Notes: a model not told the origin generated them from the letters alone. Counted from the first letter of the stretch, positions 15,501-64,000 are shown. The stretch is 64,000 bases of DNA from Haliotis cracherodii (GCF_022045235.1 NW_027266297.1:72540001-72604000); one strand, 5' to 3'. Translations and numbers: made by a program.

Positions 15501-18500
15501 ACGATGACTTTATCATATTTTGTACACACCTTGAGTAGAAGTCCAGCCAGGCAAACTGGAATACATGTTCCAGGGCCATTACACAAGATCTGCAACAGCA
15601 AAGATGTATGATCAGTTTCTTTTGACAGACCAAGTTACTGAATGATATTTAAGCATACCCCTGGATACGTGATATACCTCTCATATACCTTTTTTTAATT
15701 ATCCAAGGTCAAGGTCACTCAGTATGAACTAGGCATCTAAACAGCTTGCTTACTCAATAACATGAGCCGAGATTACTGAAATTTGACAAAATTGACACAC
15801 CACTAGGGTGTATCAGGTCAGGCTCAACAGGTCACATTATGAAACATGGCTGGAATTTAATTTCAATACACACTAAACTATTATTTTAACAAACTGAAAG
15901 GGACCACTAACTTTAGTTAGTTATGAGCTTTTCGACTGTCAGACATCTTGGATCAAGCCATGTAAGCACAGGTTACTCGATAAATAACAATCACTGGATT
16001 GTCTGGTTCAGACTCAACCATTTACAGACTGCCGTCATATAGCTGGAATATTGCTGAGTGGGGTGATAAACAACAAACAAACTATGCTTGTTCATCTGGA
16101 AAATGACATAAAATATATCACACAAGTAAGTAGTATATCATTGATACAGTTTCATTGACAAACAGACAAAAGCTTTCTGCGAGGTGTCTGCCGTCATAAT
16201 TTTATCAATTCTGAATTTCCCCACTCAAGTCGTCACATTTTAAAGACTGAATATATCCACCCCAAAGGCTATAGTGAAAACTGAGGACAAGGTGTCCCTA
16301 CTTAATCCAGTTAATCCCTTGCCTTCAATTGTTTATGCTACTTTCTACAGTCGCAGGTTCTCACAGATGTTTTGATAGGCTGATTGGCGATACGTGAGCA
16401 GCTCAGAGATAAACATTTCATTATAAACATAGACATTGTCGTTGGCAGAAGGTCGTTTACTCATGTAATTATTGTATGGAAACACTCCTGAAAGATAGCT
16501 CACCGTAGGGGTGAGAAGATACATCAGTGTACCGATGCATCGTGAGTTTTCATATGACGATACAATACTCAACACGTTTTTTAACTGTATCGATACAAGA
16601 TGATACTCTTACTACACACTTGATAACCCCCATTCCAAATAAATTACTCCCTACTCATTTAATGACCTCCCATTCCAGCATTTTGTCAGTCAGATATTGC
16701 AAAATATGCTGTAATTAGCTTTTCATGTTCACTACTAAAAAGAGCTTCTACGAATATGTGTCTTATACATATCTTATCATGACCTTGCTGTATCGTTTCA
16801 CCCACAGTCAGCTTTAACTTGTTCGGTGGCGGCCATGAAGAGTGGAGATGTGACGTCTGCTTCCATATTGGCATGTAAACCTAACCAAACCTTCCAGTTG
16901 CTGATGTTACTGATTCACTATGTGAGATATCACATGGCTTATGTTTTCCAAGGAAAGTCTTTTAGACTGCATCAAGTTTCTGTCTGTTGAGGTAAAGTCA
17001 TGACAAAAGAAATCAACGTATATATTCCCACATTATGGAAACTAATTCACTAGCTGTAGGTAAAACTCAGAAAAAAATGTTGTATCTTATCAGAGAACTT
17101 ACTATTTCTGGTTTCCGTCGGAAGACAACGGGAAAGGTGTAGATGGCAGCGTACAAAGTCGACAGCACTGTGCTCACCCATGACTGTTTCACATGACGAC
17201 TCCGTGGAATTCTTATCACAAAATACTGAAAGCAAAAGATCCTGTTTTTATACATTTGCTTCGCTTTCACATGTTCATTTGCATATCAAGTACATGTCCA
17301 CAAGTGCCATGATGTTGGGGGTCCTGAGATTCTAAGAATAATAATGATGACTGAGACATTCACAAGCCCAATAATGTTATCCTTAGAATAGTTCTGAGAG
17401 TGATCCTGGCACAACAAAGGGATGCAACTCTGCCACTCTTACCAACCCTGGTTTATAGCTACTGTGATTAAATAGTGACAAAAGAAACAAGCAGCATTTG
17501 TATCCATCATCACAGTGAGTGAACGGGTATGGTTTTACGCCGCTTTTAGCAATATTCCAGCAATATATTGTTACCCCATTGTTACCCCATCACATCCTCC
17601 ATCACAGCATGTTTCACCCCGATAACCAGGGATTTTGACCCAAAAAGCTGTACAGTGAGTGAGTGAGTGAGTGAGTGAGTGAGTGAGTGAGGTTTTGCGC
17701 CGCTTTAAGCAATATTCCTGCAATATCACGGTGGGGGACACCAGAAATGGGCACCACAGATTGTACCCATGTCGGGAACCCAGGTCTTCGGTGTGATGAG
17801 CAAACGCTTTAACCACTAGGCTACCCGACCGCCCCTTGAACTCTAGTAGTTTTCAGTTCAGAATAAATGGTGCAAGAGAGGTAAACAATATTATTCAAGC
17901 AAATACGACTGCCAGAGCCTAAAAGAAACTATAATTTATTAGTTTGCAAAAGAATTATGCCTACCAGTTGTCTAGGAATGCAACTTCAAAAGTTTTGTTT
18001 TGTTTGTTTGTTGTTTAACGCCACACTCAGCATTATTCCAGTTCTATAATGGCGGTCTGTAAATAATTGAGTCTGAAGCATACATTCCAGTGATTGACAT
18101 CATGAACATCGATCCACGCAATTGGTATACAATGACATGCATCAACCAAGTCAGCAAGTCTGACCACCCGATCATGTTAGTCACCTCTTATGACAAGCAT
18201 GTGCTTAAGACCTATTCTACCCCGGATCTTCACATGTCTACTTCAATAGTAGATGACTGATGCTACAAACCTGAGACTGTTCCTGCTCTTCTTTCCGACT
18301 CTCTTCCAAGGCATGGACTTTATGTTCACTCATCTTGTCGGTGTCTGCAATAACGTAGTACCTGGGCGAGTAGTGGCTCCCCAGCTGTCGCACCAGACAC
18401 AGGACTTCTCTCGTGTGACCTCCTATAATCCAAACATTCAGTGTTAATGCTAGATTACACCAGTGGGGGAAATCTTCAAATTTAATGGGTTGGTTTCTCT

Positions 18501-19020
18501 GGCACATAGCTTCATTCTGGGAGCTATGGTTGATTAATGTTGTGATAACTTTGAATGTAGAATGTGCTAATTGGTTAATCATAAGGATGTTGATGGATGT
18601 CTTTCTATATAGAATCACACAGATCATCACATACCACACAAACCACTTAACATTTACTTGGTCATCATGCAAAGATTACACTACGTTTCCCCCAACCTAT
18701 AATAATATCATAATAATAATAATAATAATAACAATAATAATATTAATAAGGGGGTCCTTTATGGCACTCATACATCATTCCCAATTGTGTGTCAGCATTG
18801 AAGTACTGATGACCTATTTTAATATAAATTATTACCACAGATTAAATACAGAAGCTGGTATATTACCTGAACCTACCACTACCATCAAGGAAGCTGAAGC
18901 TTTTCTCTTGCCTGCATTTAATGGATTGTGTGTTCCATTTACTTTTACAAAATGTATTCTATACAGAAGATATGTCAGAATACACACAGGAACAAGAATG
19001 AGAAATATAAACACGTCCAT
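12566..19020 (-). CDS. ALG14: UDP-N-acetylglucosamine transferase subunit ALG14, 5 coding exons, 219 aa
   Basis: Exons 19020-18867, 18422-18271, 17225-17103, 15589-15530, 12736-12566. Motifs VVGSGGHT, YSPRYYVIADTDKMS, IPRSRHVKQSW, LCNGPGTCIPVC, VYVESVCRVTSLSLSAKIL, FVQWP, YIGRIV-stop. Confidence 0.95.
13150..15485 (-). mobile_element. DIRS1-like retrotransposon relic in ALG14 intron 4
   Basis: Inverted repeats at 13194-13350 and 15318-15480 (AAACTTATCCTGTCTCACAC...CCTATGTGGAAAC...CCAGCTTCTAAAAAC) homologous to the ITRs of the 30812-33108 element. Possible decayed recombinase motif LFLLAVTSA on the minus strand near 14200-14250. Contains a family B SINE (13668-13865) and a 56-bp array. Confidence 0.65.
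14269..15276. repeat. 56-bp minisatellite, 18 copies
   Basis: Unit GTGAGGTAGGTAGCGGCTGTGTAGATGGAGGGAGCATCACAGGAGGGGTCAGCAAA, highly homogeneous. Confidence 0.97.
15985..16082 (+). mobile_element. SINE-like family B, 3' fragment
   Basis: AATCACTGGATTGTCTGG...GCCGTCATATAGCTGGAATATTGCTGAG followed by AAAC tail. Confidence 0.7.
17655..17835 (-). mobile_element. tRNA-derived SINE, family A, with (ACTC)n tail
   Basis: (GAGT)n run followed by the reverse complement of the family A body and tRNA-like head. Confidence 0.85.
17995..18235 (-). mobile_element. SINE-like family B, near full length
   Basis: Reverse complement runs from GTGAAGATCCGGGGTAGAATAGGTCTT through to the AAAC tail. Confidence 0.8.
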
Positions 19021-20173: not shown

Positions 20174-23100
20174 ATGATGGGTCGCAGAATTGAGGTGATC
20201 GCATTTGATACAACCTATTACCCATTTGCATTCGCAAGCTGTGCATTTTTCCTGTGTATTTATAAATATGTCTCCCCATCGCTGTCACTGCGAATGTGTG
20301 AAGGGTACAGGAATATGCCACTGGCAAAACAAATTGACTGGAATACAAGGTAAGTCAATGATACTTCAGTTTAGCAGTTTGTATTACAACATTGTTTATG
20401 TTTCTATAAATCTTGACCTCATTACTGATTGTTATAAAAATCCTTTTTTCATTATATATGTAGAATATCACTGGTAATATGTTCATACAGTTGTTTCATC
20501 AGTTAATAGTAATTGACAACTATTGATTCAGTAAGATATTGGGTAGTACTGGATTGGTTTGGTTGGTTTGTTCTTTACGCCGCACTCAGCAGTATTCCAG
20601 CTATATGACGGCGGTCTGTAAATAATCGAGTCTGGACCAGACAATCCAGTGATTAATACCATGAGCATCGATCCACGCAATTGAGATCGATGACATGCTT
20701 CAACCAAGTCAGCGAAGATAAATTCTCACCATGTGTTTTTTATGTGAGTTGATAAAATTGCTTTGACAAGTTGAACAAAGATTTTTACTATTTTTGTCAT
20801 ATTTCTTCGTTGGTATTATTTTCCTAAATTCAGCGGTAGAAACTACAATTTTTAGTCCACTAGTCCTTATAATGATAACAAATAGCAAAACACTTAAAAA
20901 TGGCATATTTCTACTAGTCCTTATGATACCTTAACTGTTGGGCAGTTTGGCAAGGACTACAGGACTAGTGCCAATTTCTAACCCTGAAATTGATAAATTA
21001 AGTCGGTACAACATGTAAGAACACATTGGAATTTACATGTTAACATGTGTTCAATAAAATTATAAATACCAGCCCCTAAATAAATCTACAAGTTTGTTTA
21101 CAAATTAAATGGAGTTTCCATCCATGGATAGAGTGAACTATCAGTTTCTTTAGGAAGAATATGTTCTGGTACGTTGATCACAGTAATCAGGGGAAGTAGG
21201 CCTTGCTAGCCCTTACCCCACACCTATACAGTTTCAGCAACAAGAGATCAGATGATATGATAGGTAGGCCTTGCTAGCCCTTACCCCACACCTATACAGT
21301 TTCAGCAACAAGAGATCAGATGATATGATAGGTAGGCCTTGCTAGCCCTTACCCCACACCTATACAGTTTCAGCAACAAGAGATCAGATGATATGATAGG
21401 TAGGCCTTGCTAGCCCTTACCCCACACCTATACAGTTTCAGCAACAAGAGATCAGATGATATGATAGGTAGGCCTTGCTAGCCCTTACCCCACACCTATA
21501 CAGTTTCAGCAACAAGAGATCAGATGATATGATAGGTAGGCCTTGCTAGCCCTTACCCCACACCTATTCAGTTTCAGCAACAAGAGATCAGATGATATGA
21601 TAGGTAGGCCTTGCTAGCCCTTACCCCACACCTATACAGTTTCAGCAACAAGAGATCAGATGATATGATAGGTAGGCCTTGCTAGCCCTTACCCCACACC
21701 TATACAGTTTCAGCAACAAGAGATCAGATGATATGATAGGTAGGCCTTGCTAGCCCTTACCCCACACCTATTCAGTTTCAGCAACAAGAGATCAGATGAT
21801 ATGATAGGTAGGCCTTGCTAGCCCTTACCCCACACCTATTCAGTTTCAGCAACAAGAGATCAGATGATATGATAGGTAGGCCTTGCTAGCCCTTACCCCA
21901 CACCTATTCAGTTTCAGCAACAAGAGATCAGATGATATGATAGGTAGGCCTTGCTAGCCCTTACCCCACATCTATACAGTTTCAGCAACAAGAGATCAGA
22001 TGATATGATAGGTAGGCCTTGCTAGCCCTTACCCCACACCTACACAGTTTCAGCAACAAGAGATCAGATGATATGATAGGTAGGCCTTGCTAGCCCTTAC
22101 CCCACACCTATACAGTTTCAGCAACAAAAGATCAGATGATATGATAGGTAGGCCTTGCTAGCCCTTACCCCACACCTATACAGTTTCAGCAACAAGAGAT
22201 CAGATGATATGATAGGTAGGCCTTGCTAGCCCTTACCCCACACCTATACAGTTTCAGCAACAAAAGATCAGATTATATCATAGGTAGGCCTTGCTAGCCC
22301 TTACCCCACACCTATACAGTTTCAGCAACAAGAGATCAGATGATATGATAGGTAGGCCTTGCTAGCCCTTACCCCACACCTATACAGTTTCAGCAACAAA
22401 AGATCAGATTATATCATAGGTAGGCCTTGCTAGCCCTTACCCCACACCTATACAGTTTCAGCAACAAAAGATCAGATTATATCATAGGTAGGCCTTGCTA
22501 GCCCTTACCCCACACCTATACAGTTTCAGCAACAAAAGATCAGATGATATGATAAGTAGGCCTTGCTAGCCCTTACCCCACACCTATACAGTTTCAGCAA
22601 CAAGAGATCAGATGATTTGATAGGTAGGCCTTGCTAGCCCTTACCCCACACCTATACAGTTTCAGCAACAAAAGATCATATGATATGATAGGTAGGCCTT
22701 GCTAGCCCTTACCCCACACCTATACAGTTTCAGCAACAAGAGATCAGATGATATGATAGGTAGGCCTTGTTAGTCCTTACACCACACCTATACAGTTTCA
22801 GCAACAAAAGATCAGATGATATGATAGGTAGGCCTTGCTAGCCCTTACCCCACACCTATACAGTTTCAGCAACAAGAGATCAGATGATATGATAGGTAGG
22901 CCTTGTTAGTCCTTACACCACACCTATACAGTTTCAGCAACAAAAGATCATATGATATGATAGGTAGGCCTTGCTAGCCCTTACCCCACACCTATACAGT
23001 TTCAGCAACAAGAGATCATATGATATGATATGTGGTGGGTTTTCATTGAGTTGTCTCTTTATCTTTGCATTATCTAGCGAACTAGAACATGGACAGAGCC

Positions 23101-43558: not shown

Positions 43559-46500
43559 ATGTGAGTACATTAGAGTGTTGCTTTGGTAATCAAATATGGA
43601 ATAATATTTTCTTAAGTCTATATTCGCGGTTTCCCCGCTTCCCTTTAATGTGTAAAGAGGTGTTAAATTCATTAATCTTGGTAAAACACATGTAGAGCTA
43701 GAGAATGTTTGTAATGAATCCATTTTGGCACCCTTCAACTTTGTGGACAGCGTAAACATGTTTGATTGGTTTGGCAAGTATATTGCTAGGTTAAAAAGAA
43801 CCTGTTTCCTCTTGTCGTCGCAATGATAACTTGGCAAATTCCTGACTGAAATACTTTGTGGTTGTATCGTTAATCACGATACTCTGAAGGTATCTTTCCC
43901 TCAAATATTACAAAATAACCATTGTGAAGTGGCATTTGAAACCAGTGCAAACTGTTACTATTTGACGAATAAAACTTGTTCAAGATAAAAAAAAAGAGTA
44001 TCTTTGAATCATATTGATGTATGCAGCTAATATTTCTGTGAAATATTGTTGATATGACGTAAACACTTCAACTCACTCACTCATATAAGCATTAAGTTGT
44101 TTACACTAAATGTTCATGAAGTTATCTTCTTAGAAAATTATCTTCTTAGGATATTGTGTATCCAGTAAGAAGCACATGTAGGACACCGACTTGGCTCCAA
44201 GTGTGCCTTTGAACTATAGCAGCTCTCACTTGACTAGTTTTGCTATGCAATGCTATGTATATTGCTTACTTGTCATTCCCAGGAGCCAACGACCCCCAAG
44301 TAGCAGTGGTCGTCCAATCACTGGGGCAGCTCGCCCCCCAGGGACAGGTAATGACTTATATCTTGTTAATAATTCTTAGAATTGATATATATAATGTTTT
44401 GCCAATATCAATATCATATATACCATATATGGTTTTACAAAATAAATATTTTAAGTATCTTGAAATTATTCTGGTTCCCATTTATATGTCATTAAAAATT
44501 ATGAATCACCGTCTTTGTTAACTATACAGAGTTTTCTCCGTTGTTAGCTGCAGGGAGACAGCCTGGGACGGCCACCAGATTGACAACTGCTATGGTAGGT
44601 TCACCATCAAGTGGTGTATTTTACTCAATACTTTCGTTACAATGCTTACAAAGATTGAAAGGTTTAAAATGTGAAAGCTAGATTGATAATTTTCTACACG
44701 GTTCTTATTTCAGAATCCAGGCACAGCTAGACCAGGGACCAGGGGAGGGCAGATAGGAGGAGGCGTGGGTAGGTCGTCATTGACCTTGAAATATATCAAG
44801 TCAAATATTACAAATAAATCTTTGTAGATGTGTACCTGTTACTTCAAGGTAGCGATCTCTTTCAAATGGCTGTTGTCTAATCTTATCAGAAATCTGTGGC
44901 AGATTTTGTCACATTCCACAGGCAGAGGATAATTTTGTTGACACAACGTTTTGCTGCAGCAAATAAGCACATTTGTTGATGTTTAGAAGCACGATGATAA
45001 TGCATCAGTTTGATATTTTATTGAGTGTAATGGTATTTAGAAACTGAAAATTTTCAGGAAAAAAACATGAATAAGGAAAACTCTGTAATTTTCTCCGTAA
45101 TGGTGTAATGCTTAGTGGACAGACTGAAATTAGGTTAAACAAGGAAATGTATTGAATTTGAAATATATCTTTTCAAAATCTGTTTGATTGTCCTTGACAG
45201 TTAGTTTGGGATTTTTTTGTTCCATTATAACACAATACAGATATATACTGAATTGAATACATGCCTTCTCTGTCCACAGCCCTGATGTCCCAGGTGACGG
45301 TGGTAGATCGTCCCACGACGCAGCAGGGCTTGGGAGGAATGAAGACAGCCAAGCAAGGTTAGCAAGAAATCACTGAAATAGCAAATTACGGAAATAAACA
45401 GGAATCATTTGTAGGAGTACAGTAGTTTAAAATTGAAATCAAATTATTTGACTAAAACACATCTCAATTTTGGGTGTTACATTATGTGTGTTGTTTATTT
45501 GTCATGTCATGTGTGCCGTCACATTAAGTGAGAATAATCCTTCACATCAACTACATGTATGCAAAGAAATGGATAAAATGTAACTTAACATATGCTTGTT
45601 AATGACATGATTGTTTTCTCCTCCATGATGATGATGATGATGTTACAGGTGGGAGACAAGTTATGGACAAGACATACTACCTTGGCTTGATCAGGTGAAC
45701 ACTTCCTTTTTATTTTTTTAAAAGAGCCTTTTTTGCTTAACTAGATACGTATGGTGCAGCTTAGACCTTAATGAAATATTGTTTTTCCTTCTTTTGAGAA
45801 CTGAATATTCTGAGCCTAACAACCTATGACTAACCAATCAGTCAATCATTTTTTTGCCTAAGGTTGTTTTTGATGATGATATGAAAATGATACAAAGCCT
45901 CTTGATAGCCCGGTGAAGATCCAGGTTAGAACTGGTCTTCAGCAACCCATGCTTGTTGTATGATGCGACTAACAAGATGGTGGGTCAGATTCGCTGACTT
46001 TGTTGATGCATGTCATCATATCCCAATTGCCTGATCACTGCTCATTATGTCAATCACTGGATTGTCTGATCCAGGCTTCCATATTGACAGATGAGACATA
46101 TAACATATGTATCTTTCTGAACATACCACCTGATATGTACCGTTTGTATCTTAAAAGTGGGATTAGAATGTTGTGTGGAGTGATACCAGTAATTACAATG
46201 TATGTACCCTCAGGCTTAGATCACTGTAGTCAACACTTGTTATCTCTGCTTCAAGATTGAGTTACCGTATTTGACATAATAAGCGCTCAGGGAACTCCCA
46301 ATATTAGGAATAGGGGGCTCTTATTAGAATATTATTTTGGTAAAAAAAACAGAGTTTAAAGATAGATTTCATGGTTAATGCTGACAGCCTGAAATGTTTA
46401 TGTATGACATATATTTTTCCAGAATTAAATTGCCCATAATTAAGGGTGCATATAACACCACACGAGTGAGTATTGTACACGAATAAATAAGTCTTGTGTA

Positions 46501-49500
46501 CATTGATGAATTGGAAGGGGTGCTAACTGGGATTGTTCACTAGCCAATATATTAGCAAATATCGCCGTGGGCGCTGATTAGAGCGGGGCGCTTATTATGT
46601 CAAATACGGTATATGGTTTTACTGAGGGAGCATACAGAAAAACTAATACTGATAATTCCATTTTTGGCTGTTAATGTTATGTGAATTATGTGGTGATTAG
46701 GGTACAGAGTGTTGTGTGGAATGATACCGTTAATTACAGGGTGTGGACCCTCAAGCCCAGATTATTGTATTCTCTTTGCTTGAGGATTAAGTTTATGTGG
46801 TTTTACTGAGGGATCATACTGAAAAACTGGTACTGATAATTTAATCTTTACATCTTATTTTACATCTTTTAATGTTCTGTGAATGGTGTTGTGTTACAGG
46901 AGTAAAATCAATGAGCTGAATGCAGAAGTGATCCGACTGAACAAGGATATTGAGAATGCTAATGATGAGAACTCCAGCTACCTCTCGTATGAGAAAAGGT
47001 ACACATCTTTTACTGCTTCATCTATATGCCACATGTTGTATGTTAGATACCTCCTTGTTAGAGCTCTTACGGCAAAAGCAGACCGCTCCATGGATAGAGC
47101 GACAACCCAGAGGGTAGAGTGTCGGTGGTTTGATCTCTAGACATGTCATATCAAGACATTAAAAGATGATACTTGATATTTCCCTGCCTGGCACTCTGCA
47201 TTAAGGGGATAAAACAAGGACTGGTCGGCTCAAGTCAGTATACTGTGTCTGAGTGGGGTATCCATGTTAAACTACAACTTTATATCTCAGTGGGCTAGCA
47301 CTATAAAACCTGATTTGTTCAAGCAGGCACACACATGCATGCATGTCGTTAAGTAAGTGCAGTAAAAGGCGATTATGCTTGTCGTAAAAGGCAAACTAAC
47401 GGGATTGGGTGGTCAGGCTCGCTGACTTGGTTGATGCATGTCATCGATTCCAATTGCGTGGATCGATGCTCATGATGTCAATCACTGGATTGTCTGGTCC
47501 AGACGCGATTATTTACAGACCAACGTCATATAGCTGGAATATTGTGACGTCAAACAACAAACAACCAAAGTCCTAACTGGAAATGAATGACAATGTATCA
47601 GTGTCTTCAGTAACTTTTGTCCAACCTGACCTTCTTCAGCTTGTTGGGAAACATACCAAGAGCTTTGGAAGCTCCTTTCAAGTATTTATTAATGGCATAC
47701 AGATTGTAGAACGTCTGATACACAGAATTATTTTATGATGTTATATTTGGTTTCAGAGCTGAGGCTTTGGCTGGAGAGATCCGAGACCTGCAGGGAGAAC
47801 TTGGTGATTATAATACTGTAAGTATATCCATGTAGGATTATAATACTGTAAGTATACCCATGTAGGATTATAATACTGTAAGTATACCCATGTAGGATTA
47901 TAATATTGTAAGTATATCCATGTATGATTATAATACTGTAAGTATATCCATGTAGGATTATAATACTGTAAGTATACCCATGTAGGATTATAATATTGTA
48001 AGTATATCCATGTATGATTATAATACTGTAAGTATATCCATGTAGGATTATAATACTGTAAGTATATCCATGTAGGATTATAATACTGTAAGTATATTCA
48101 TGTAGGATTATAATACTGTAAGTATATCCATGTAGGATTATAATACTGTAAGTATATCCATGTAGGATTATAATACTGTAAGTATATCCATGTATGATTA
48201 TAATACTGTAATTATATCCATGTATGATTATAATACTGTAATTATATCCATGTAGGATTATAGTACTGTAAGTATATCCATGTAGGATTATAGTACTGTA
48301 AGTATATCCATGTAGGATTATAATACTGTAAGTATATCCATGTATGAGTATAATACTGTAAGTATATCCATGTATGATTATAATACTGTAAGTATATCCA
48401 TGTATGAGTATAATACTGTAAGTATATCCATGTAGGATTATAATACTGTAAGTATATCCATGTATGTTTATAGTACTATAAGTATATCCATGTATGATTA
48501 TAATACTGTAAGTATATCCATGTAGGATTATCATAGTGTAAGTATATCCATGTAGTATTATAATAATGTAAGTATATCCATGTAGGATTATAATACTGTA
48601 AGTATACCCATGTATGTTTATAATACTGTAAGTATACCCAAGTAGGATTATAATACTGTACGTATATCCATGTAGGATAATAATACTGTAAGTATACCCA
48701 AGTATGATTATAATACTGTAAGTGTACCCAAGTAGGATTATAAAACTGTAGGTAAACCCAACTATGATTATAATACTGTAAGTGTACCCAAGTAGGATTA
48801 TAATACTGTAGGTGTACCCAAGTAGGATTATAATACTGTAAGTATACCCAAGTAGGATTATAATACTGTAAGTATACCCAAGTAGGATTATAATACTGTA
48901 AGTGTACCAAAGTATGTTTATATTACTGTAAGTGTACTCAAGTATGTTTATAATACTGTAGGTATACCAAATAGGATTATAATACTGTAAGTATACCCTA
49001 GTAGGATTATAATACTGTAAGTGTACCCAAGTATGTTTATAATACTGTAGGTTTACCCAGTAGGATTATAATACTGTAAGTGTACCCAAGTAGGATTATA
49101 ATACTGTAAGTGTACCCAAGTATGTTTATAATACTGTAAGTGTACTCAAGTAGGCTTATGATACTGTAGGTATACCCAGTAGGATTATAATACTGTAGGT
49201 ATACCTGAGTAGGATTATAATACTGTAAGTATACCAAAGTAGGATTATAATACTGTACGTATATCCATGTTGGATTATAATACTGTAAGTATACCCAAGT
49301 ATGATTATAATGCAGTAAGTATACCTAAGTAGGATTATTATGCAGTAGGTATACCTGGGTAGGATTAAAATACTGTAAGTGTACCCAAGTATGTTTATAT
49401 TACTGTATGTAGTTCCATGTAGGATTATAATACTGTTCATTTATCCATGTATGATTATAATGCAGTAAGTGTACCCAAGTAGGATTATAATACTGTAAGC

Positions 49501-52500
49501 ATACCCAAGTAGGATTATAATACTGTACATATATCCATGTAGGATTATAATATTGTATGTATATCCATGTAGGATTATAATGCCTTAAGTATGCCTAAGT
49601 AGTATTGACACGTTTATTCCAGCCATGTTTATTGTTGCAGCTGGTGGATAAACTGACAACAGACGAGGACATCCAGGACGTGGAGTTTGACTGTAACAAT
49701 GTGAGTAGTAGCCAGAGGTGGAGCCAAGATGGCGAGGGACGAGGGTGGATGACACATGACATATAGTGTATGCAGGATGTCTTTGTGTGGCTTTGTGGAA
49801 GCTGCAGAAACAGTGAGGAAAGAGTTGACTTGTGGATTTAAACATCTTTATTATCCCCCACTACAAAGTGTAAGGGTGATATTGGAATTGGTGCTGTCCA
49901 TCCGTCCATCACGTTTCCAAACATGAGAGATATCTTAACCAAACTTGGCACATAGATAGGTCTAGTAGTGAACTGGTGCCTTTTGATAGTTTGGGATTTA
50001 AAAAAAAAATCATTTTTCGAGTTTCCATAGCAATGACTTTGACTAAAAATGGCGGTAGTGCTCCTTTCCAGAGTAGATCTTGAAAACCATACAATATTTC
50101 TTCACCAAACTTGTCACATAGATAGGTCTAGTGGTAAATTGCTGCCTTTTGATAGTTTTTAGACAATATATTTTGCCTTGCACAAAACCTGACATGTTAT
50201 TTTGGCGGGGGATATGAGTATTACATGCATCTTCTTTCAATGGGACTTTTCAGTACAGATACCAGCCTCCAGTGCCTTGATGAAGGTACTATCATCTGTT
50301 CCTAAAGGTCGCATTGAAAGAATAAAAAAGTTGTAATCCATGTCAACTGTGTCCCCATCTTATATGATACTTTTAACAATTACAACTGTAAGCTGTAATG
50401 TGGTGACATTAGCTAATTCTCTGTGTTCATCCATGTATCTATGCTATCATATGATGCACAGGCAATGACATGTTCTTGGTGATTGTGTTACAGCTGAAAT
50501 CACAGAATGACAGAGAAGCAAAGAAAATAGAAGACATGTTTGATGTCAAGAAACAGTGAGTACAATAGACACTGGCTGGACTGATCTGGTTGTAGCAATA
50601 GCTGATCTGGTGTTACTGGTTGTCACAATGGCAGATCTGATGTTACTGGTTGTCACAATGACTGATCTGATGTGACTGGTTGTCACAATGGCAGATCTGA
50701 TGTTACTGGTTGTCACAATGGCTGATCTGATGTGACTGGTTGTCACAATGGCAGATCTGATGTTACTGGTTGTCACAATGGCTGATCTGATGTTACTGGT
50801 TGTCACAATGGCTGATCTGATGTTACTGGTTGTCACAATGGCTGATCTGATGTTACTGGTTGTCACAATGGCTGATCCGATGTTACTGGTTGTCACAATG
50901 GCGGATCCGATGTTACTGGTTGTCACAATGGCGGATCCGATGTTACTGGTTGTCACAATGACGGATCCGATGTTACTGGTTGTCACAATGACGGATCCGA
51001 TGTTAAGAATTGTCACAATGGCTGATCCAATGTTACTGGTTGTCACAATGGCTGATCTGATGTTACTGGTTGTCACAATGGCTGATCTGATGTTACTGGT
51101 TGTCACAATGGCTGATCTGATGTTACTGGTTGTCACAATGGCTGATCTGATGTTACTGGTTGTCACAATGGCTGATCTGATGTTACTGGTTGTCACAATG
51201 ACTGATCTGTTACTGGTTGTCACAATTACTGATCTGATGTTACTGGTTGTCACAATGGCTGATCTGATGTTACTGGTTGTCACAATGGCTGATCTGATGT
51301 TACTGGTTGTCACAATGGCTGATCTGATGTTATTGGTTGTCACAATGGCTGATCTGATGTTACTGGTTGTCACAATGACTGATCTGTTACTGGTTGTCAC
51401 AATGACTGATCTGATGTTACTGGTTGTCACAATGGCTGATCTGATGTTACTGGTTGTCACAATGGCTGATCTGATGTTACTGGTTGTCACAATGACTGAT
51501 CTGATGTTACTGGTTGTCACAATGGCTGATCTGATGTTACTGGTTGTCACAATGGCTGATCTGATGTTACTGGTTGTCACAATGACTGATCTGATGTTAC
51601 TGGTTGTCACAATGGCTGATCTGATGTTACTGGTTGTCACAATGGCTGATCTGATGTTACTGGTTGTCACAATGACTGATCTGATGTTACTGGTTGTCAC
51701 AATGGCTGATTTGATGTTACTGGTTGTCACAATGGCTGATCTGATGTTACTGGTTGTCACAATGGCTGATCTGATGTTACTGGTTGTCACAATGGCTGAT
51801 CTGATGTCACTGGTTGTCACAATGGCTGATCTGATGTTACTGGTTGTCACAGTGGCTGATGTGATGTTACTGGTTGTCACAGTGACTGATCTGATGTTAC
51901 TGGTTGTCACAATGGCTGATCTGATGTTACTGGTTGTCACAATGGCTGATCTGATGTTACTGGTTGTCACAATTACTGATCAGATGTTACTGGTTGTCAC
52001 AATGGCTGATCTGATGTTACTGGTTGTCACAATGGCTGATCTGATGTTACTGGTTGTCACAATGGCTGATCTGATGTTATTGGTTGTCACAATGGCTGAT
52101 CTGATGTTACTGGTTGTCACAATGACTGATCTGTGACTGGTTGTCACAATGACTGATCTGATGTTACTGGTTGTCACAATGGCTGATCTGATGTTACTGG
52201 TTGTCACAATGGCTGATCTGATGTTACTGGTTGTCACAATGGCTGATCTGATGTCACTGGTTGTCACAATGGCTGATCTGATGTTACTGGTTGTCACAGT
52301 GGCTGATGTGATGTTACTGATTGTCACAGTGACTGATCTGATGTTACTGGTTGTCACAATGGCTGATCTGATGTTACTGGTTGTCACAATGGCTGATCTG
52401 ATGTTACTGGTTGTCACAATGGCTGATCAGATGTTACTGGTTGTCACAATGGCTGATCTGATGTTACTGGTTGTCACAATGGCTGATCTGATGTTACTGG

Positions 52501-55500
52501 TTGTCACAATGGCTGATCTGATGTTACTGGTTGTCACAATGGCTGATCTGATGTTACTGGTTGTCACAATTGCTGATCTGATGTTACTGGTTGTCACAAT
52601 TGCTGATCTGATGTTACTGGTTGTCACAATGGCTGATATCTAATGTTACTGGTTGTCACAATGGCTGATCTGATGTTACTGGTTGTCACAATGGCTGATC
52701 TGATGTTACTGGTTGTCACAATTGCTGATCTGATGTTACTGGTTGTCACAATGGCTGATCTGATGTTACAGGTTGTCACAATGGCTGATCTGATGTTACT
52801 GGTTGTCACAATTGCTGATCTGATGTTACTGGTTGTTCACAGGAAGGAGGACATGATCAGCCAGCTGAACACAGAGCTGGATCAGGAGAAGCGCATGGCA
52901 GACAGTCTGGTCAATGACATGGTGGGTATAGCTACATGCAGTTAAAACATGTTCACACAAACTGAGAAAAATTACTTTCTTTGCTCTCTGATTCTTTTTG
53001 ATAATGCAAAATGCTGTGGCTTATTCAAGAAACTGTCACATGTATTTATCAAATATTCTGAAAGAGATCAGCAGAATACTGCTATAGTTGATTTCCAATG
53101 ATGAGCTTAAGATATTAAAACCTATTATTCTGAACATTATCCTTTGTCTGACAGGTTCTTTGTGACCATCAACCCTTAAGGGGGGGTCTTTTACACACTG
53201 CCAAAATGTTGGAGGGGGACTAGACATTTTCATGATGTGTAAAACTAACAGTAATTATTGCCCTGTTTACAGTGATTCAACATCAGAATGCACTGTAGTG
53301 GTTCCGGAATAGGTCCCCATCTATGCCATCTTCCCGAGGCAAGAGAGTTACTAGGCTGGAATTACTGGGCTTGATCGTAGCGCCACCAGTAGCTATTAAG
53401 AGCTATGTCCCTTCCATGCCTCTCCTAATGACCAATCAGATTCCACCTCTCGTATCACTTGCATTTCTTCAAACAAAACGTCAAGACGATCTGATTGATA
53501 ATCAAGATCTATATTGTGATAAAACGAGTCGTACATCACGAAGTGCATCAAATCACGTGAGCACCTTGATTAAAAACATGAAAGGATTTAGATAATATCT
53601 GTTGACAACGAGTTGCTGGTGCACATGTTTTGCAAATCTTTCAATCGACCAAAATCTGCATGACAGTTTACGAACAGGATTTCGATTTCGTTGCTCAATT
53701 TTGATTGGACTTTGCATAGACTTGTTAGGCCAGGCAAAATGTAACTCCATAATACAGCCTAGTTCGGCAAGGGTGGAAACTGGACTTTTATAGTCAGTTA
53801 AGTCACTTGCATCGGGAAGATGCATCTATGCTGGTCGTAAAAGGATTTTAATGGGTGGTGGATGGATCAGGTGGTAAATTGATGATTGCGTCATCATTGT
53901 ACCAGCGATAGAAACTAACACTTTTAGCCCACTGGTCTTTATAATGATAACATAAGGCAAAACCTTTAGAAAGGGCAGATTTCTACTAGTCCTTAGGATA
54001 CCTTAACCGTTGGGCAGTTTGGCAGGGACTACAGGACTAGTGCCAATTTCTAATGCTGCGTACCACGTTGTTGTTCATTATATCAGTAACTGAATTGTCT
54101 GGTTTGAAGACTTGATTATTTACAGACCACCATCATATAGCTGGACTATTCCCAAGTGTTTCATAAAGTACTAACAAACAAGAAGACAATTGGGACCATT
54201 GAGCATATTTCCCCTTCAGCCATGTATGACACACTCTCGCCATGTATGACACACTCTCGCCATGTGTGACACACTCTCGCCATGTATGACACACTCTCGC
54301 CATGTATGACACACTCTCGCCATGTGTGACACACTCTCGCCATGTATGACACACTCTCGCCATGTATGACACACTCTCGCCATGTATGACACACTCTCGC
54401 CATGTATGACACACTCTCACCATGTATGACACACTCTGGCCATGTATGACACACTCTCGCCATGTATGACACACTCTCGCCATGTATGACACACTCTCGC
54501 CATGTATGACACACTCTCGCCATGTATGACACACTCTCACCATGTATGACACACTCTCGCCATGTATGACACACTCTCGCCATGTGTGACACACTCTCGC
54601 CATGTATGACACACTCTCGCCATGTGTGACACACTCTCGCCATGTATGACACACTCTCGCCATGTATGACACACTCTCGCCATGTATAACACACTCTCGC
54701 CATGTATGACACACTCTCGCCATGTATAACACACTCTCGCCATGTATGACACACTCTCGCCATGTATGACACACTCTCGCCATGTATGACACACTCTCGC
54801 CATGTGTGACACACTCTCGCCATGTGTGACACACTCTCGCCATGTATGACACACTCTCGCCATGTATGACACACTCTCGCCATGTATGACACACTCTCGC
54901 CATGTATGACACACTCTCGCCATGTGTGACACACTCTCGCCATGTATGACACACTCTCGCCATGTGTGACACACTCTCGCCATGTATGACACACTCTCGC
55001 CATGTATGACACACTCTCGCCATGTATGACACACTCTCGCCATGTATGACACACTCTCGCCATGTATGACACACTCTCGCCATGTGTGACACACTCTCGC
55101 CATGTGTGACACACTCTCGCCATGTGTGACACACTCTCGCCATGTATGACACACTCTCGCCATGTATGACACACTCTCGCCATGTATGACACACTCTCGC
55201 CATGTATGACACACTCTCGCCATGTATGACACACTCTCGCCATGTATGACACACCATGTATGACACACTCTGGCCATGTATGACACACTCTCGCCATGTA
55301 TGACACACTCTCGCCATGTATAACACACTCTCGCCATGTATGACACACTCTCGCCATGTATAACACACTCTGGCCATGTATGACACACTCTGGCCATGTA
55401 TGACACACTCTCGCCATGTATGACACACCATGTATGACACACTCTGGCCATGTATGACACACTCTGGCCATGTATGACACACTCTCGCCATGTATGACAC

Positions 55501-58500: not shown

Positions 58501-61500
58501 CATGTATGACACACTCTCGCCATGTATGACACACCATGTATGACACACTCTCGCCATGTATGACACACTCTCGCCATGTATGACACACTCTCGCCATGTA
58601 TAACACACTCTCGCCATGTATGACACACCATGTATGACACACTCTCGCCATGTATGACACACTCTCGCCATGTATGACACACTGCACAGTATGGAGCAGA
58701 CGTCTATATTTGGTTGTTGTGTGTGTGACAGGAGCCGGAGATGAGGCAGAGATATTTCAAGATGAAGGATATGAACGAGCACCTGCTGAAGCAGCTGGAG
58801 AACGGCCAGCAGGAACTGGATCAGCTCAACTCCAAGATCGAGGGCTTGCAGGATGTATGTATCCAGTGGAATTATAAAGACAAACTTGATTCCAACAATT
58901 GCTAGCCTTCATGTATTTTAAGACATGTTTCCTCCTTTGCAATGTGTTGTGACATGTCTGGTTCAGTGACTGGAACTGATTGATTGTTTGTCTTCAGGAG
59001 CTGTCTATGTCACAAGTCAAGCAAGAAGCAGGTAAGATAAAGATGAAAAAAATAATAATACATCCTGATTTGTATGTTGTCTAAGGCATCATTACACACG
59101 TGCAGAGTTGCATCCCTCAGCTCCGAGATTCCTCACAGCGATATCCTGTAAGCAGAGCTCTCTGTGTTATCACTTCCCACTGTAAACGGCAGCATTCGAC
59201 TACAAATGGAGGTGACCTCGCAACTGCCTGACCATTATGTCAAGTACTCGCCCCAAGCTAAAATATTTTTTGACCTGATCCTGACTTATACTTGTTTCTT
59301 ATCTCATCTCATATCCTGACTTATACTTATTTCTTATCTCATCTCATATCCTGACTTATACTTATTTCTTATCCCATCTCATATCCTGACTTATACTTAT
59401 TTCTTATCTCATCTCATATCCTGACTTATACTTATTTCTTAGCCCATCTCATATCCTGACTTATACTTATTTCTTATCTCATCTCATATCCTGACTTATA
59501 CTTATCTCATCTCATATCCTGACTTATACTTGTTTCTTATCCCATCTCATATCCTGACTTAAACTTGTTTCTTATCTCATCTCATATCCTGACTTATACT
59601 TATTTCTTATCTCATCTCATATCCTGACTTATACTTGTTTCTTATCTCATCTCATATCCTGACTTATACTTATTTCTTATCCCATCTCATATCCTGACTT
59701 ATACTTATTTCTTATCTCATCTCATGTCTACATGTGCATGTTCCAGTGAGGACTGTTCAGTGTTTGTGTGAGGACTGTATACATGTGCATGTTCCAGTGA
59801 GAACTGTTCAGTGTTTGTGTGAGGACTGTATACATGTGCATGTTCCATTGAGAACTGTTCAGTGTTTGTGTGAGGACTGTATACATGTGCGTGTTCCAGT
59901 GAGAACTGTTCAGTGTTTGTGTGAGGACTGCATACATGTGCGTGTTCCAGTGAGAACTGTTCAGTGATTGTGTGAGGACTGTCTACATGTCCATGTTCCA
60001 TTGAGAACTGTTCAGTGATTGTGTGAGGACTGTCTACATGTGCATGTTCCAGTGAGAACTGTTCAGTGTTTGTGTAAGGACTGTATACATGTGCCTGTTC
60101 TAGTGAGAACTGTTCAGCGTTTGTGTGCGGACTGTATACATGTGCCTGTTCTAGTGAGAACTGTTCAGTGTTTGTGTGGACTGTATACATGTGCATGTTC
60201 CAGTGAGAACTGTTCAGTGTTTGTGTGAGGACTGTCTACATGTGCGTGGTCTAGTGAGAACTGTTCAGTTTTTGTGTGAGGACTGTTTGTGTTTTCCAGT
60301 GAGAACTGTTCAGTGTTTGTGTGAGGACTGTATACATGTGCGTGTTCCAGTGAGAACTGTTCAGTGTTTGTGTGAGGACTGTATACATGTGCATGTTCTA
60401 GTGAGAACTGTTCAGCGTTTGTGTGAGGAGTGTATACATGTGCCTGTTCTAGTGAGAACTGTTCAGTGTTTGTTTGAGGACTGTATACATGTGTATGTTC
60501 CATTGAGAACTGTTCAGTGTTTGTGTGAGGACTGTTTGTGTTTTCCAGTGAGAACTGTTCAGTGTTTGTGTGAGGACTGTATACATGTGCGTGTTCTAGT
60601 GAGAACTGTTCAGCGTTTGTGTAAGGACTGTATACATGTGCGTGTTCCATTGAGAACTGTTCAGTGTTTGTGTGAGGACTGTATACATGTGCATGTTCCA
60701 GTGAGAACTGTTCAGTGTTTGTGTGAGGACTGTCTACATGTGCGTGTTCCAGTGAGAACTGTTCAGTGTTTGTGTGAGGACTGTCTACATGTGCGTGTTC
60801 CATTGAGAACTGTTCAGTGTTTGTGTGAGGACTGTATACATGTGCATGTTCCAGTGAGAACTGTTCAGCGTTTGTGTGAGGACTGTCTACATGTGCGTGT
60901 TCCAGTGAAAACTGTTCAGTGTTTGTGTGAGGACTGTCTACATGTGCGTGTTCCAGTGAGAACTGTTCAGTGTTTGTGTGAGGACTGTATACATATGCCT
61001 GTTCTAGTGAGAACTGTTCAGCGTTTGTGTGCGGACTGTATACATGTGCCTGTTCTAGTGAGAACTGTTCAGTGTTTGTGTGAGGACTGTATACATGTGC
61101 ATGTTCCAGTGAGAACTGTTCAGTGTTTGTGTGAGGACTGTCTACATGTGCGTGGTCTAGTGAGAACTGTTCAGTTTTTGTGTGAGGACTGTTTGTGTTT
61201 TCCAGTGAGAACTGTTCAGTGTTTGTGTGAGGACTGTATACATGTGCATGTTCCAGTGAGAACTGTTCAGTGTTTGTGTGAGGACTGTCTACATGTGCGT
61301 GTTCCAGTGAGAACTGTTCAGTGTTTGTGTGAGGACTGTATACATATGCCTGTTCTAGTGAGAACTGTTCAGCGTTTGTGTGCGGACTGTATACATGTGC
61401 CTGTTCTAGTGAGAACTGTTCAGTGTTTGTGTGAGGACTGTATACATGTGCATGTTCCAGTGAGAACTGTTCAGTGTTTGTGTGAGGACTGTCTACATGT

Positions 61501-63764
61501 GCGTGGTCTAGTGAGAACTGTTCAGTTTTTGTGTGAGGACTGTTTGTGTTTTCCAGTGAGAACTGTTCAGTGTTTGTGTGAGGACTGTATACATGTGCAC
61601 GTTCCAGTGAGAACTGTTCAGTGTTTGTGTGAGGACTGTCTACATGTGCGTGTTCCATTAAGAACTGTTCAGCGTTTGTGTGAGGACTGTATACATGTGC
61701 ATGTTCCAGTGAGAACTGTTCAGTGTTTGTGTGAGGACTGTCTACATGTGCGTGGTCTAGTGAGAAGTGTTCAGTTTTTGTGTGAGGACTGTTTGTGTTT
61801 TCCAGTGAGAACTGTTCAGTGTTTGTGTGAGGACTGTATACATGTGCGTGTTCCAGTGAGAACTGTTCAGTGTTTGTGTGAGGACTGTATACATGTGCAT
61901 GTTCTAGTGAGAACTGTTCTAGTGTTCAGCGTTTGTGTGAGGACTGTATACATGTGCATGTTCCAGTGAGAACTGTTCAGTGTTTGTGTGAGGACTGTCT
62001 ACATGTGCGTGGTCTAGTGAGAACTGTTCAGTTTTTGTGTGAGGACTGTTTGTGTTTTCCAGTGAGAACTGTTCAGTGTTTGTGTGAGGACTGTATACAT
62101 GTGCATGTTCCAGTGAGAACTGTTCAGTGTTTGTGTGAGGACTGTCTACATGTGCGTGTTCCATTAAGAACTGTTCAGCGTTTGTGTGAGGACTGTATAC
62201 ATGTGCATGTTCCAGTGAGAACTGTTCAGTGTTTGTGTGAGGACTGTCTACATGTGCGTGGTCTAGTGAGAACTGTTCAGTTTTTGTGTGAGGACTGTTT
62301 GTGTTTTCCAGTGAGAACTGTTCAGTGTTTGTGTGAGGACTGTATACATGTGCGTGTTCCAGTGAGAACTGTTCAGTGTTTGTGTGAGGACTGTATACAT
62401 GTGCATGTTCTAGTGAGAACTGTTCAGCGTTTGTGTGAGGAGTGTATACATGTGCCTGTTCTAGTGAGAACTGTTCAGTGTTTGTGTGAGGACTGTTTGT
62501 GTTTTCCAGTGAGAACTGTTCAGTGTTTGTGTGAGGACTGTATACATGTGCGTGTTCCAGTGAGAACTGTTCAGTGTTTGTGTGAGGACTGTATACATGT
62601 GCGTGGTCTAGTGAGAACTGTTCAGTTTTTGTGTGAGGACTGTTTGTGTTTTCCAGTGAGAACTGTTCAGTGTTTGTGTGAGGACTGTATACATGTGCAT
62701 GTTCCAGTGAGAACTGTTCAGTGTTTGTGTGAGGACTGTATACATGTGCATGTTCTAGTGAGAACTGTTCAGCGTTTGTGTGAGGAGTGTATACATGTGC
62801 CTGTTCTAGTGAGAACTGTTCAGTGTTTGTGTGAGGACTGTTTGTGTTTTCCAGTGAGAACTGTTCAGTGTTTGTGTGAGGACTGTATACATGTGCGTGT
62901 TCCAGTGAGAACTGTTCAGTGTTTGTGTGAGGACTGTATACATGTGCATGTTCTAGTGAGAACTGTTCAGCGTTTGTGTGAGGAGTGTATACATGTGCCT
63001 GTTCTAGTGAGAACTGTTCAGTGTTTGTGTGAGGACTGTTTGTGTTTTCCAGTGAGAACTGTTCAGTGTTTGTGTGAGGACTGTATACATGTGCGTGTTC
63101 CAGTGAGAACTGTTCAGTGTTTGTGTGAGGACTGTATACATGTGCATGTTCTAGTGAGAACTGTTCAGCGTTTGTGTGAGGAGTGTATACATGTGCCTGT
63201 TCTAGTGAGAACTGTTCAGTGTTTGTATGAGGACTGTATACATGTGTATGTTCCAGTGAGAACTGTTCAGTGTTTGTGTGAGGACTGTTTGTGTTTTCCA
63301 GTGAGAACTGTTCAGTGTTTGTGTGAGGACTGTATACATGTGCGTGTTCCAGTGAGAACTGTTCAGTGTTTGTGTGAGGACTGTATACATGTGCATGTTC
63401 CAGTGAGAACTGTTCAGTGTTTGTGTGAGGACTGTATACATGTGCCTGTTCTAGTGAGAACTGTTCAGTGTTTGTGTGAGGTCTGTTTGTGTGTGTCCCA
63501 GTGTTTGTGTGAGGACTGTATGCTTGTCCAGTGAGAATTGTTCAGTGTTTGTTGGAGGACTATGTGTGTTCAAGTGAGAGTGTTTGTGTGAGGACTGTGT
63601 GTGCATGTTTCAGTGCGACTGTACGAGCAGCTTCATGAGCTGGAGGCGAGGCGAGACCAGCTGGTGGAGGAGGCCAAGTCACGGGGGACGCCAGCGGAGG
63701 AGAGGGAGAAGTTGCTGAAGCAAGTAAAGGAAGACAACCAGGAGATAGCCAGCATGGAGAGACA
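43559..63764 (+). CDS. IFT74: Intraflagellar transport protein 74, exons 1-14; gene continues beyond the window
   Basis: Coding segments 43559-43560 (AT), 44283-44347, 44548/44554-44594, 44714-44768, 45280-45357, 45649-45694, 46900-46998, 47757-47817, 49641-49700, 50494-50555, 52843-52921, 58732-58854, 58998-59031, 63614-63764; all phases fit. Peptides [93 protein letters not shown] match IFT74. Confidence 0.95.
45908..46095 (+). mobile_element. SINE-like family B, 5' part
   Basis: CCCGGTGAAGATCCAGGTTAGAACTGGTCTTCAGCAACCCATGCTTG... Confidence 0.75.
46265..46609. mobile_element. pogo/Tigger-type MITE, inverted copy of 23130-23457
   Basis: TA|CCGTATTTGACATAATAAGCGC ... GCGCTTATTATGTCAAATACGG|TA. 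Confidence 0.85.
47080..47568 (+). mobile_element. Old SINE with Meta-like central domain (47080-47345) followed by a family B copy (47375-47568)
   Basis: CCTGCCTGGCACTCTGCATTAAGGGG...GGACTGGTCGGCTC...GTGTCTGAGTGGGG resembles the MetaSINE domain from memory; the family B body is clear. Confidence 0.55.
47806..49581. repeat. 30-bp minisatellite, about 59 copies, containing the IFT74 exon 8 end and donor
   Basis: Unit GATTATAATACT|GTAAGTATATCCATGTAG; the first unit overlaps coding sequence. Confidence 0.96.
49848..50220 (+). mobile_element. Helentron/HINE-like element related to 8632-9270
   Basis: TTATCCCCC start, GTCCATCCGTCC microsatellite, two AAACTTGGCACATAGATAGGTCTAG units, GGCGGGGGATAT end. 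Confidence 0.55.
50580..52842. repeat. 30-bp minisatellite, about 75 copies, filling IFT74 intron 10 up to the acceptor
   Basis: Unit CTGATCTGATGTTACTGGTTGTCACAATGG; the last unit ends TTGTTCACAG, the acceptor at 52841-52842. Confidence 0.96.
53318..53830. mobile_element. MITE with ~28-bp imperfect TIRs
   Basis: CATCTATGCCATCTTCCCGAGGCAAGAGA versus reverse complement CATAGATGCATCTTCCCGATGCAAGTGA at the right end. Confidence 0.6.
54219..58683. repeat. 20-bp minisatellite, about 4.5 kb, with 14-bp deletion variants and a large internal duplication
   Basis: Unit GCCATGTATGACACACTCTC. Confidence 0.97.
59278..59724. repeat. 35-bp pyrimidine-rich minisatellite, about 13 copies
   Basis: Unit ATCCTGACTTATACTTATTTCTTATCTCATCTCAT. 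Confidence 0.93.
59726..63625. repeat. 51-bp (variant 45-bp) minisatellite, about 3.9 kb, homologous to the IFT74 exon 14 acceptor
   Basis: Unit GTTTGTGTGAGGACTGTATACATGTGCATGTTCCAG|TGAGAACTGTTCAGT. Confidence 0.95.
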
Positions 63765-64000
63765 GTAAGTACCCCCTGAACACATGGAGAGACAGTAAGT
63801 ACCCCCTGAACACATGGAGAGACAGTTAGTACCTCCTGAACACATGGAGAGACAGTAAGTACCCCCTGAACACATGGAGAGACAGTAAGTACCCCCTGAA
63901 CACATGGAGAGACAGTAAGTACCTCCTGAACACATGGAGAGACAGTAAGTACCTCCTGAACACATGGAGAGACAGTAAGTACCCCCTGAACACATGGAGA
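63753..64000. repeat. 30-bp minisatellite, at least 8 copies, containing the IFT74 exon 14 end and donor; runs off the window
   Basis: Unit CATGGAGAGACA|GTAAGTACCCCCTGAACA. Confidence 0.96.

What the first reader, a model, noticed from the sequence alone, without database searches (positions are those of the whole stretch)
47806..49581. Exon 8 donor amplified ~59 times as AG / 12 nt / GTAAGT cassettes
The unit is the last 12 coding nt (GAT TAT AAT ACT, DYNT) plus the consensus donor GTAAGT plus ATATCCATGTAG. Most proximal units therefore carry an identical 5' splice site and also resemble a frame-preserving 12-nt micro-exon (TAG|GATTATAATACT|GT). Reading to any downstream donor hits GTA AGT ATA TCC ATG TAG in the first unit, so only the first donor is productive. 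Units are most uniform beside the exon and decay distally.
Basis: partly seen in the sequence, partly recalled or inferred. Interest (0 to 1): 0.7.

Follow-up and report, generated by a model that had tools for sequence, protein, structure and literature searches.

The report
Splice-donor minisatellite in abalone IFT74
A 30-base piece spanning the end of an exon and its splice signal is repeated 60 times into the next intron of an abalone cilia gene, but assembled RNA from two runs splices at the first copy, so it is likely a harmless repeat of a kind already known from human and lancelet genes.

Summary
The array is real: 60 units of 30 nt (47806-49602), each the last 12 nt of IFT74 exon 8 plus the first 18 nt of its intron. 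It fills 1785 of the intron's 1823 nt. GT survives in 58 of 60 units, units are most uniform beside the exon, and read-through hits a stop in unit 1. RNA contigs of two runs join the first donor (47817) to exon 9; rare forms would not show. The micro-exon idea is not supported: all 39 decoy acceptors score below all 20 real acceptors, and the AG is lost in 19 of 60 units. Related abalones share the array. It is a new member of a known kind: human F7, CBS and 6-16 repeats, amphioxus 'mirages'. Such arrays recur in this genome: a second one in IFT74, and 5 of 169 sampled kinesin/kinase donors (all 5 in kinesins), a modest excess over chance. The scan already noted several others on other DNA of this genome. 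Best reading: tolerated repeat, first-donor preference, with nonsense-mediated decay likely clearing leaks. Interest is low; the genome-wide frequency is the part worth following.

The parts
47757..47817 (+). IFT74 exon 8 (61 nt; seventh mapped exon), ending GAT TAT AAT ACT (DYNT, residues 148-151)
   Evidence: tblastn with P0001; RNA contigs of X3 and X2 cover 47755-47817 with loose ends matching exon 7 and exon 9
47806..49602 (+). Minisatellite, 60 units of 30 nt: 12 exon nt plus 18 intron nt; unit 1 holds the true exon end and donor
47818..47823 (+). Authentic 5' splice site GTAAGT, the donor seen in RNA contigs
   Evidence: loose end behind 47817 reads CTGGTGGATAAACTG..., the start of exon 9, in X3 (depth 161) and X2 (depth 7.9)
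47833..47835 (+). In-frame TAG (codon 157) met if any downstream donor is used
   Evidence: translation
47836..49602 (+). 59 copies with pseudo-donors (57 keep GT); 39 are preceded by AG, none with acceptor-like context
49603..49640 (+). 38 nt of non-repeated intron carrying the real acceptor (TTTATTGTTGCAG)
49641..49700 (+). IFT74 exon 9 ([20 protein letters not shown])
46900..46998 (+). IFT74 exon 7, joined to exon 8 in RNA contigs
63753..64000 (+). Second, unrelated donor-spanning array in the same gene (12 exon nt + 18 intron nt, 14.5 units, runs on to 64187 beyond the window); read-through stops at once

Best explanation
This is an intronic minisatellite whose 30-nt unit spans the exon 8 donor of abalone IFT74; assembled RNA from two runs splices at the first donor, and the 59 extra copies are likely tolerated passengers with no regulatory role. 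Shown: the unit's make-up, the intact reading frame, the first-donor junction, the stop codon behind it, the weak decoy acceptors, and the presence of the array in relatives. Inferred: (1) birth by one 30-bp tandem duplication across the exon-intron boundary, which left exon end and donor intact in the first copy; (2) growth by ordinary minisatellite turnover (slippage or unequal exchange), most recently at the exon end; (3) the spliceosome takes the most upstream of identical donors, as shown experimentally for the human F7 repeat; (4) any leak to a later donor carries a stop at codon 157 of 594 and would be removed by nonsense-mediated decay, so selection against the array is weak.
For: RNA contigs of X3 (organism B, depth 161) and X2 (organism A, depth 7.9) each leave exon 8 at 47817 into exon 9 (2 of 2 RNA runs laid on that stretch). 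Nineteen mapped exons read through 493 codons without a stop, 487 identical to P0001. Four of four Haliotis records are 594 aa with a single DYNT. Splice-like positions are not specially kept: GT 58 and 60 of 60, like unrelated positions 5 and 28 (60 of 60); AG lost in 19 of 60. Decoy acceptors fall below all real ones. Minisatellites are dense here: 15% of 344 kb around kinesin exons and 7.7% of 146 kb around kinase exons. Donor-spanning arrays recur: 63753 in this gene, and 5 of 124 kinesin exons. Same behaviour is reported for F7 (PMC1557585) and amphioxus mirages (PMC3087553; PMC3902484).
Against: Contigs drop rare variants and NMD would hide unproductive forms, so 'first donor only' is not shown. 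The runs are from coded organisms, at least one about 4% different in introns, and RNA is the tool's guess. In human CBS and 6-16 the two nearest pseudo-donors are used (PMC1557585 introduction), so some leak is plausible. The array has persisted across that divergence. Donor-like motifs are on the sense strand of array units more than chance (35 of 84 against 13 antisense and 22.5 +/- 3.6 shuffled), which pure indifference to splice sites does not predict.
Confidence: 0.8

Rival explanations
1. The array is a leaky unproductive-splicing switch: some transcripts use the second or third donor, gain the stop at codon 157 and are degraded, so repeat number or splicing state tunes IFT74 dose.
For: Identical donors lie 30 and 60 nt downstream. 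Every alternative carries a stop. Human CBS and 6-16 use their two nearest pseudo-donors. The second donor array in the gene is also stop-coupled. The array is shared with relatives.
Against: No such junction in two RNA contig sets (weak, as contigs drop rare forms). A stop soon after an intron start is common (own knowledge). No special conservation of the donor positions. F7 pseudo-donors stay silent even when in frame.
Confidence: 0.12
2. The units act as frame-preserving 12-nt micro-exons (DYNT) that lengthen the IFT74 coiled coil, or are a step toward new exons as proposed for mirages.
For: 38 of 59 copies have AG, 12 nt, GT, and 36 of 60 still encode DYNT. Exon or intron gain from mirages has been proposed (PMC3087553).
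Against: Decoy acceptors score -1.9 at best against 3.5 for the weakest real one. Neighbouring cassettes are only 18 nt apart; the shortest of 18 mapped introns in this gene is 119 nt. AG is lost in 19 of 60 units. 0 of 124 records carry a doubled DYNT. RNA contigs join DYNT directly to LVDK.
Confidence: 0.03
3. The array helps splicing or transcript integrity by loading U1 snRNP next to a short exon (exon definition or protection from early polyadenylation) and is kept for that.
For: 42 GTAAGT sites follow a 61-nt exon. Sense-strand excess of donor-like motifs among array units.
Against: The donor already scores 7.8, among the stronger of the gene's 20. The intron has no AATAAA and one ATTAAA. 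Most donors have no array (164 of 169 sampled). In F7 no autonomous intronic element was found.
Confidence: 0.05

Closest known systems
Human F7 intron 7 37-bp VNTR (PMC1557585; abstract, introduction, first results section and discussion read)
   Same: First unit spans the exon-intron boundary, later units repeat the donor, and only the most upstream donor is used.
   Different: 5-9 units with 4 exon nt, against 60 units with 12 exon nt. F7 pseudo-donors were shown to work when the first is mutated; untested here. Length polymorphism is known for F7, untested here.
Amphioxus 'mirages' in Adh3, globins BflGb6 and BflGb9, troponin C, PGBD5 (PMC3087553 and PMC3902484, passages read; the original Adh paper PMC117041 was not held)
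   Same: Minisatellite-like tandem copies of an exon-intron boundary, at donors or acceptors, unit sizes 10-160 bp, no reported effect on splicing, several loci per genome.
   Different: Mollusc rather than cephalochordate; more copies than in the globin cases (3-6). Germline and somatic instability were reported there and are untested here.
Human CBS intron 13 31-bp VNTR and 6-16 (IFI6) intron 2 minisatellite; LMNB2 and PDGF repeats (as summarised in the PMC1557585 introduction; CBS naming c.1444_1467+7(16_21) seen in PMC2630376 passages)
   Same: Donor repeated 10-25 times downstream of the true one; the CBS unit is nearly the same size.
   Different: CBS and 6-16 also use the two nearest pseudo-donors; no such use was seen here in contigs. 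The primary papers were not read.

Membership tests
Boundary-spanning minisatellite (F7-type VNTR / amphioxus mirage) | Head-to-tail repeats of minisatellite unit size | tested here: met
   60 units, period 30, 88% matches
Boundary-spanning minisatellite (F7-type VNTR / amphioxus mirage) | Terminal unit contains the authentic exon-intron junction of an intact gene | tested here: met
   Unit 1 = 47806-47835; junction at 47817 in RNA contigs; open frame over 493 codons
Boundary-spanning minisatellite (F7-type VNTR / amphioxus mirage) | Splice signal reiterated in the intronic copies | tested here: met
   GT in 58 of 60, ACT|GTAAGT in 36 of 60
Boundary-spanning minisatellite (F7-type VNTR / amphioxus mirage) | Main transcript uses the authentic site | tested here: met
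   2 of 2 RNA contig sets from related organisms; minor forms not excluded
Boundary-spanning minisatellite (F7-type VNTR / amphioxus mirage) | Variable copy number between alleles or cells | not testable with these tools
   One assembly and short contigs only; unit variants differ in X20 and X22 but array lengths cannot be read
F7-type oriented donor choice | Pseudo-donors become active when the first is inactivated | not testable with these tools
   Needs a minigene
Micro-exon array | Each short exon has a usable acceptor (pyrimidine tract, spacing) | tested here: not met
   39 of 39 decoys below all 20 real acceptors; 18-nt spacing
Micro-exon array | Inclusion seen in transcripts or proteins | tested here: inconclusive
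   Not seen in 2 contig sets or 124 protein records; both would miss rare forms
Recursive splice sites | AG directly followed by GT (definition from own knowledge) | tested here: not met
   AG and GT are 12 nt apart in the units

The most novel reading that the evidence does not exclude
Abalone minisatellites are born or kept preferentially at splice donors, so that a few percent of all introns carry donor arrays, and their copy number sets a rate of unproductive, NMD-coupled splicing for the host genes, IFT74 among them. The abundance part is fairly well supported (5 of 169 donors; sense-strand excess; I put it at about 0.7). The regulatory part has no positive evidence, and the probability given is for both together.
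Probability: 0.08. Interest if true: 0.65.

Novelty: new member of a known kind. Interest (0 to 1): 0.2.

Why it matters
As one locus it matters little: the gene is intact and splices normally. It is a clean natural test of first-donor choice outside mammals, with 36 identical donors in a row and a graded series of variants. The sample here gives a first rough frequency for a class that the papers seen describe from single genes. If a few percent of abalone donors carry such arrays, the genome offers many independent cases for asking why they arise at splice sites and whether they ever yield new exons or introns, as proposed for amphioxus. Practical point: such arrays can mislead gene prediction and read mapping.

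Tried and rejected
No RNA holder was on record in the run search; the runs used are guessed RNA. The first read-laying was swamped by interspersed repeats, so its exon joints were not displayed; only depth bins and DNA contig pieces were usable. A 162-nt array contig in X2 (depth 2.9) may be unspliced RNA or DNA and was not counted for or against decoy use. Polarity toward the exon as a general rule: rejected, as only 6 of 11 boundary arrays are more uniform at the exon end, several by a hair (crude lag-identity measure). Replication in kinases: 0 of 45 donors and 0 of 45 acceptors were spanned, so the 4% kinesin figure did not repeat. Acceptor excess: 2 of 169, not above expectation. The 445-aa antisense frame over the array is a by-product of a 30-nt period. 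Folding of five units gave -24.3 kcal/mol with no control; not used. The PDB search with one exon was uninformative. No look-alike notes in other genomes. Six paper searches listed no title on this locus or on splice-site arrays across mollusc genomes; listings only were seen for most hits, subscription journals are missing and no supplements were opened. PMC6905558 (passages) reports a variable 27-bp intronic minisatellite in another abalone gene, without saying it spans a boundary. PMC10078293 (passages) did not bear on this case.

Full report
Observation. The window holds a 30-nt tandem array at 47806-49602. Segmenting it gives 60 units, 57 of 30 nt and 3 of 29 nt. Unit 1 is GATTATAATACT followed by GTAAGTATATCCATGTAG. 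GT is present in 58 of 60 units, GTAAGT in 42 and ACT|GTAAGT in 36. An AG-12 nt-GT cassette is present in 38 of the 59 copies and is exact in 19. Divergence from unit 1 rises with distance (rho 0.76), and units 1-15 differ from each other by 1.39 positions on average against 6.27 for units 46-60. A search of the genome with 47700-47900 returned 25 matches, all at this locus.

Host gene. A later exon of the gene (63616-63765) is 100% identical to an abalone IFT74 record, P0001. tblastn with P0001 maps 22 exons from 44283 to about 70574 in window coordinates, using neighbouring stretches of G000. Nineteen of them, joined, read 493 codons without a stop, 487 identical to P0001. The exon in question is 47757-47817. 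It is exon 8 if an upstream exon supplies the first two bases of the ATG (candidate ending at 43560, unconfirmed). Its intron is 1823 nt, of which 1785 are array and 38 are a unique tail with the acceptor.

Splicing. On 47690-47865, one contig each from X3 (organism B, depth 161) and X2 (organism A, depth 7.9) covers 47755-47817 and continues into exon 7 on one side and exon 9 (CTGGTGGATAAACTG...) on the other. So the first donor is used. The limits are real: these are assembled contigs of runs that the tool only guesses to be RNA, from coded organisms, and contigs drop rare variants. Four of four Haliotis records are 594 aa with one DYNT, and none of 124 IFT74 records has a doubled DYNT or the read-through peptide (101 cover the junction). 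Use of any later donor gives [13 protein letters not shown], at codon 157 of 594; that such RNA would be degraded by NMD is inference from general knowledge.

Micro-exon test. An acceptor matrix from 20 IFT74 acceptors scores them 3.5 to 13.9 leave-one-out. The 39 decoy AGs score -1.9 at best, median -7.3, and 66% of 394 other AGs from a repeat-free, mostly intronic part of the gene score at least that median. The matrix is small, but the gap is complete. The last base of the AG is T in 19 of 60 units, while GT is no better kept than unrelated positions 5 and 28. Adjacent cassettes are 18 nt apart; the shortest of 18 mapped introns is 119 nt. The micro-exon reading is therefore not supported.

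Age. DNA-type runs X20 (organism B) and X22 (organism F) hold head-to-tail units: loose ends before 47805 read as the end of a unit, and one X22 contig runs from the upstream intron through the exon into unit 2 with one difference. X2 (organism A) also holds a three-piece array contig. Intron contigs of organism B differ from the window at about 4% (23 in 535, 9 in 397 and 32 in 594). The array is thus older than that divergence and is not an assembly artefact.

How common is it here? IFT74 itself has a second donor-spanning array of unrelated sequence at 63753-64187 (14.5 units), one array running into the acceptor at 52843, one whose unit resembles the acceptor at 63614, and one ending 48 nt before an acceptor, among 21 mapped introns. 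For a sample not chosen by repeats I took exons found by family searches. Kinesin: 124 of 125 matches (one stop-ridden, intronless match dropped), 344 kb, 64 arrays covering 15%. Merged into 59 blocks, 18 lie within 40 nt of or overlap a match edge, against 4.7 +/- 1.8 when slid at random between matches (maximum 14 in 20,000). Match edges only approximate splice sites, and the shuffle could not overlap exons. By eye, 5 arrays span a donor (L046, L051, L064, L082, L083) and 2 an acceptor (L051, L057). Kinase: 45 exon-sized matches of 136 (91 long or intronless ones left out), 146 kb, 20 arrays covering 7.7%; none spans a focal donor or acceptor, 5 start within 40 nt, and one spans the acceptor of a neighbouring exon (L155). 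Pooled, 5 of 169 donors and 2 of 169 acceptors are spanned. A rough neutral expectation from my own estimates of array density and unit length is 1.2-1.5 each (Poisson p 0.007-0.019 for donors, 0.33-0.45 for acceptors). Among all 84 units, a donor-like motif lies on the sense strand in 35 and the antisense strand in 13 (discordant 30 to 8, p 5e-4), against 22.5 +/- 3.6 for shuffled units (maximum 32 in 300). So donor arrays are common mainly because minisatellites are dense, with a modest donor excess that did not repeat in the smaller kinase set. Polarity toward the exon is not general (6 of 11).

Mechanism. A 30-bp duplication that starts 12 nt inside the exon and ends 18 nt inside the intron leaves the first copy as a normal exon end and donor, so the protein is unchanged (follows from the sequence). 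Further copies accumulate by minisatellite turnover (inferred). They are tolerated if the most upstream donor wins. That was shown for human F7, where pseudo-donors are functional but silent until the upstream one is mutated (PMC1557585); for abalone it is inferred, and fits. Leaks would be cleared by NMD (inferred). I give this 0.8, a regulated unproductive-splicing switch 0.12, U1 loading 0.05 and micro-exons 0.03.

Known relatives. The introduction of PMC1557585 lists F7, 6-16, CBS, LMNB2 and PDGF as genes whose minisatellite begins across an exon-intron boundary; in 6-16 and CBS the two nearest pseudo-donors are also used. PMC3087553 (passages) and PMC3902484 (one passage) describe amphioxus 'mirages', which do not appear to disturb splicing and were proposed as a route to new introns. 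I took the term and these papers from earlier scan notes on other arrays of this genome and checked the passages myself. The array meets the four features of this class that could be tested; copy-number variation could not be. Six searches listed nothing on this locus or on a mollusc-wide survey; most hits were seen as listings only, no supplements were opened, and the original Adh paper was not held.

Verdict. Observation confirmed, interpretation partly supported, new member of a known kind, interest 0.2. The open lead is the genome-wide frequency and donor bias, not this locus.

Noticed in passing
window 63753-64000 (to 64187 in L004): Second donor-spanning array in IFT74 with the same 12+18 layout but unrelated sequence. 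It ends in a half unit (exon part plus GTA) followed by different intron sequence, so the array is bracketed by a 15-nt direct repeat.
   Followed up: partly
window 50586-52841 and 59725-63613: Two IFT74 arrays reach acceptors: the last unit of the first forms the acceptor at 52843; the unit of the second resembles the acceptor at 63614 and the first exon bases.
   Followed up: partly
L046:3668-5989: Kinesin gene with 28 copies of an 83-nt unit holding about 62 coding nt plus the donor; the largest exon share among the arrays seen.
   Followed up: partly
L051:6990-7816 and L082:2207-2964: Donor arrays whose unit is almost all exon; the unit start matches the first intron bases (GTGAGGGG against TTGAGGGG; GTAAGTC against AGTC), suggesting birth by slippage between short direct repeats.
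   Followed up: no
L059:3311-5777, L061:6341-6636 and 7215-7795, L081:4846-6301: Arrays with strong sense-strand donor motifs that are not beside a mapped kinesin match; they may span donors of exons the family search missed.
   Followed up: no
L155:2556-3144 (oriented to the gene): Acceptor-spanning array at a kinase exon beginning VVTLWYRAPE.
   Followed up: no
window 14269-15284 and 21196-23030: Arrays that begin with GTGAGG and GTAGGC on the + strand; whether an exon ends there was not settled.
   Followed up: partly
window 2985-3665 (-) and 18238-18675 (-): Open frames that look like exons of a tektin and of ALG14 (names recalled, not tested by a call).
   Followed up: no
window 45908-46029, 46274-46639, 47128-47615: Very high-copy interspersed repeats, probably SINE-like, in IFT74 introns; they swamped.
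   Followed up: no
G000:C12:28406365-28415066: Six near-identical intronless kinase frames spaced about 1.6 kb apart: a tandem gene array.
   Followed up: no
G000:C74:4486-5433 and C74:24214-24885: Intronless kinesin and kinase matches with many TAA/TAG stops (20 and 10) on one contig; this pattern would fit a contaminating ciliate-like sequence with another genetic code.
   Followed up: no
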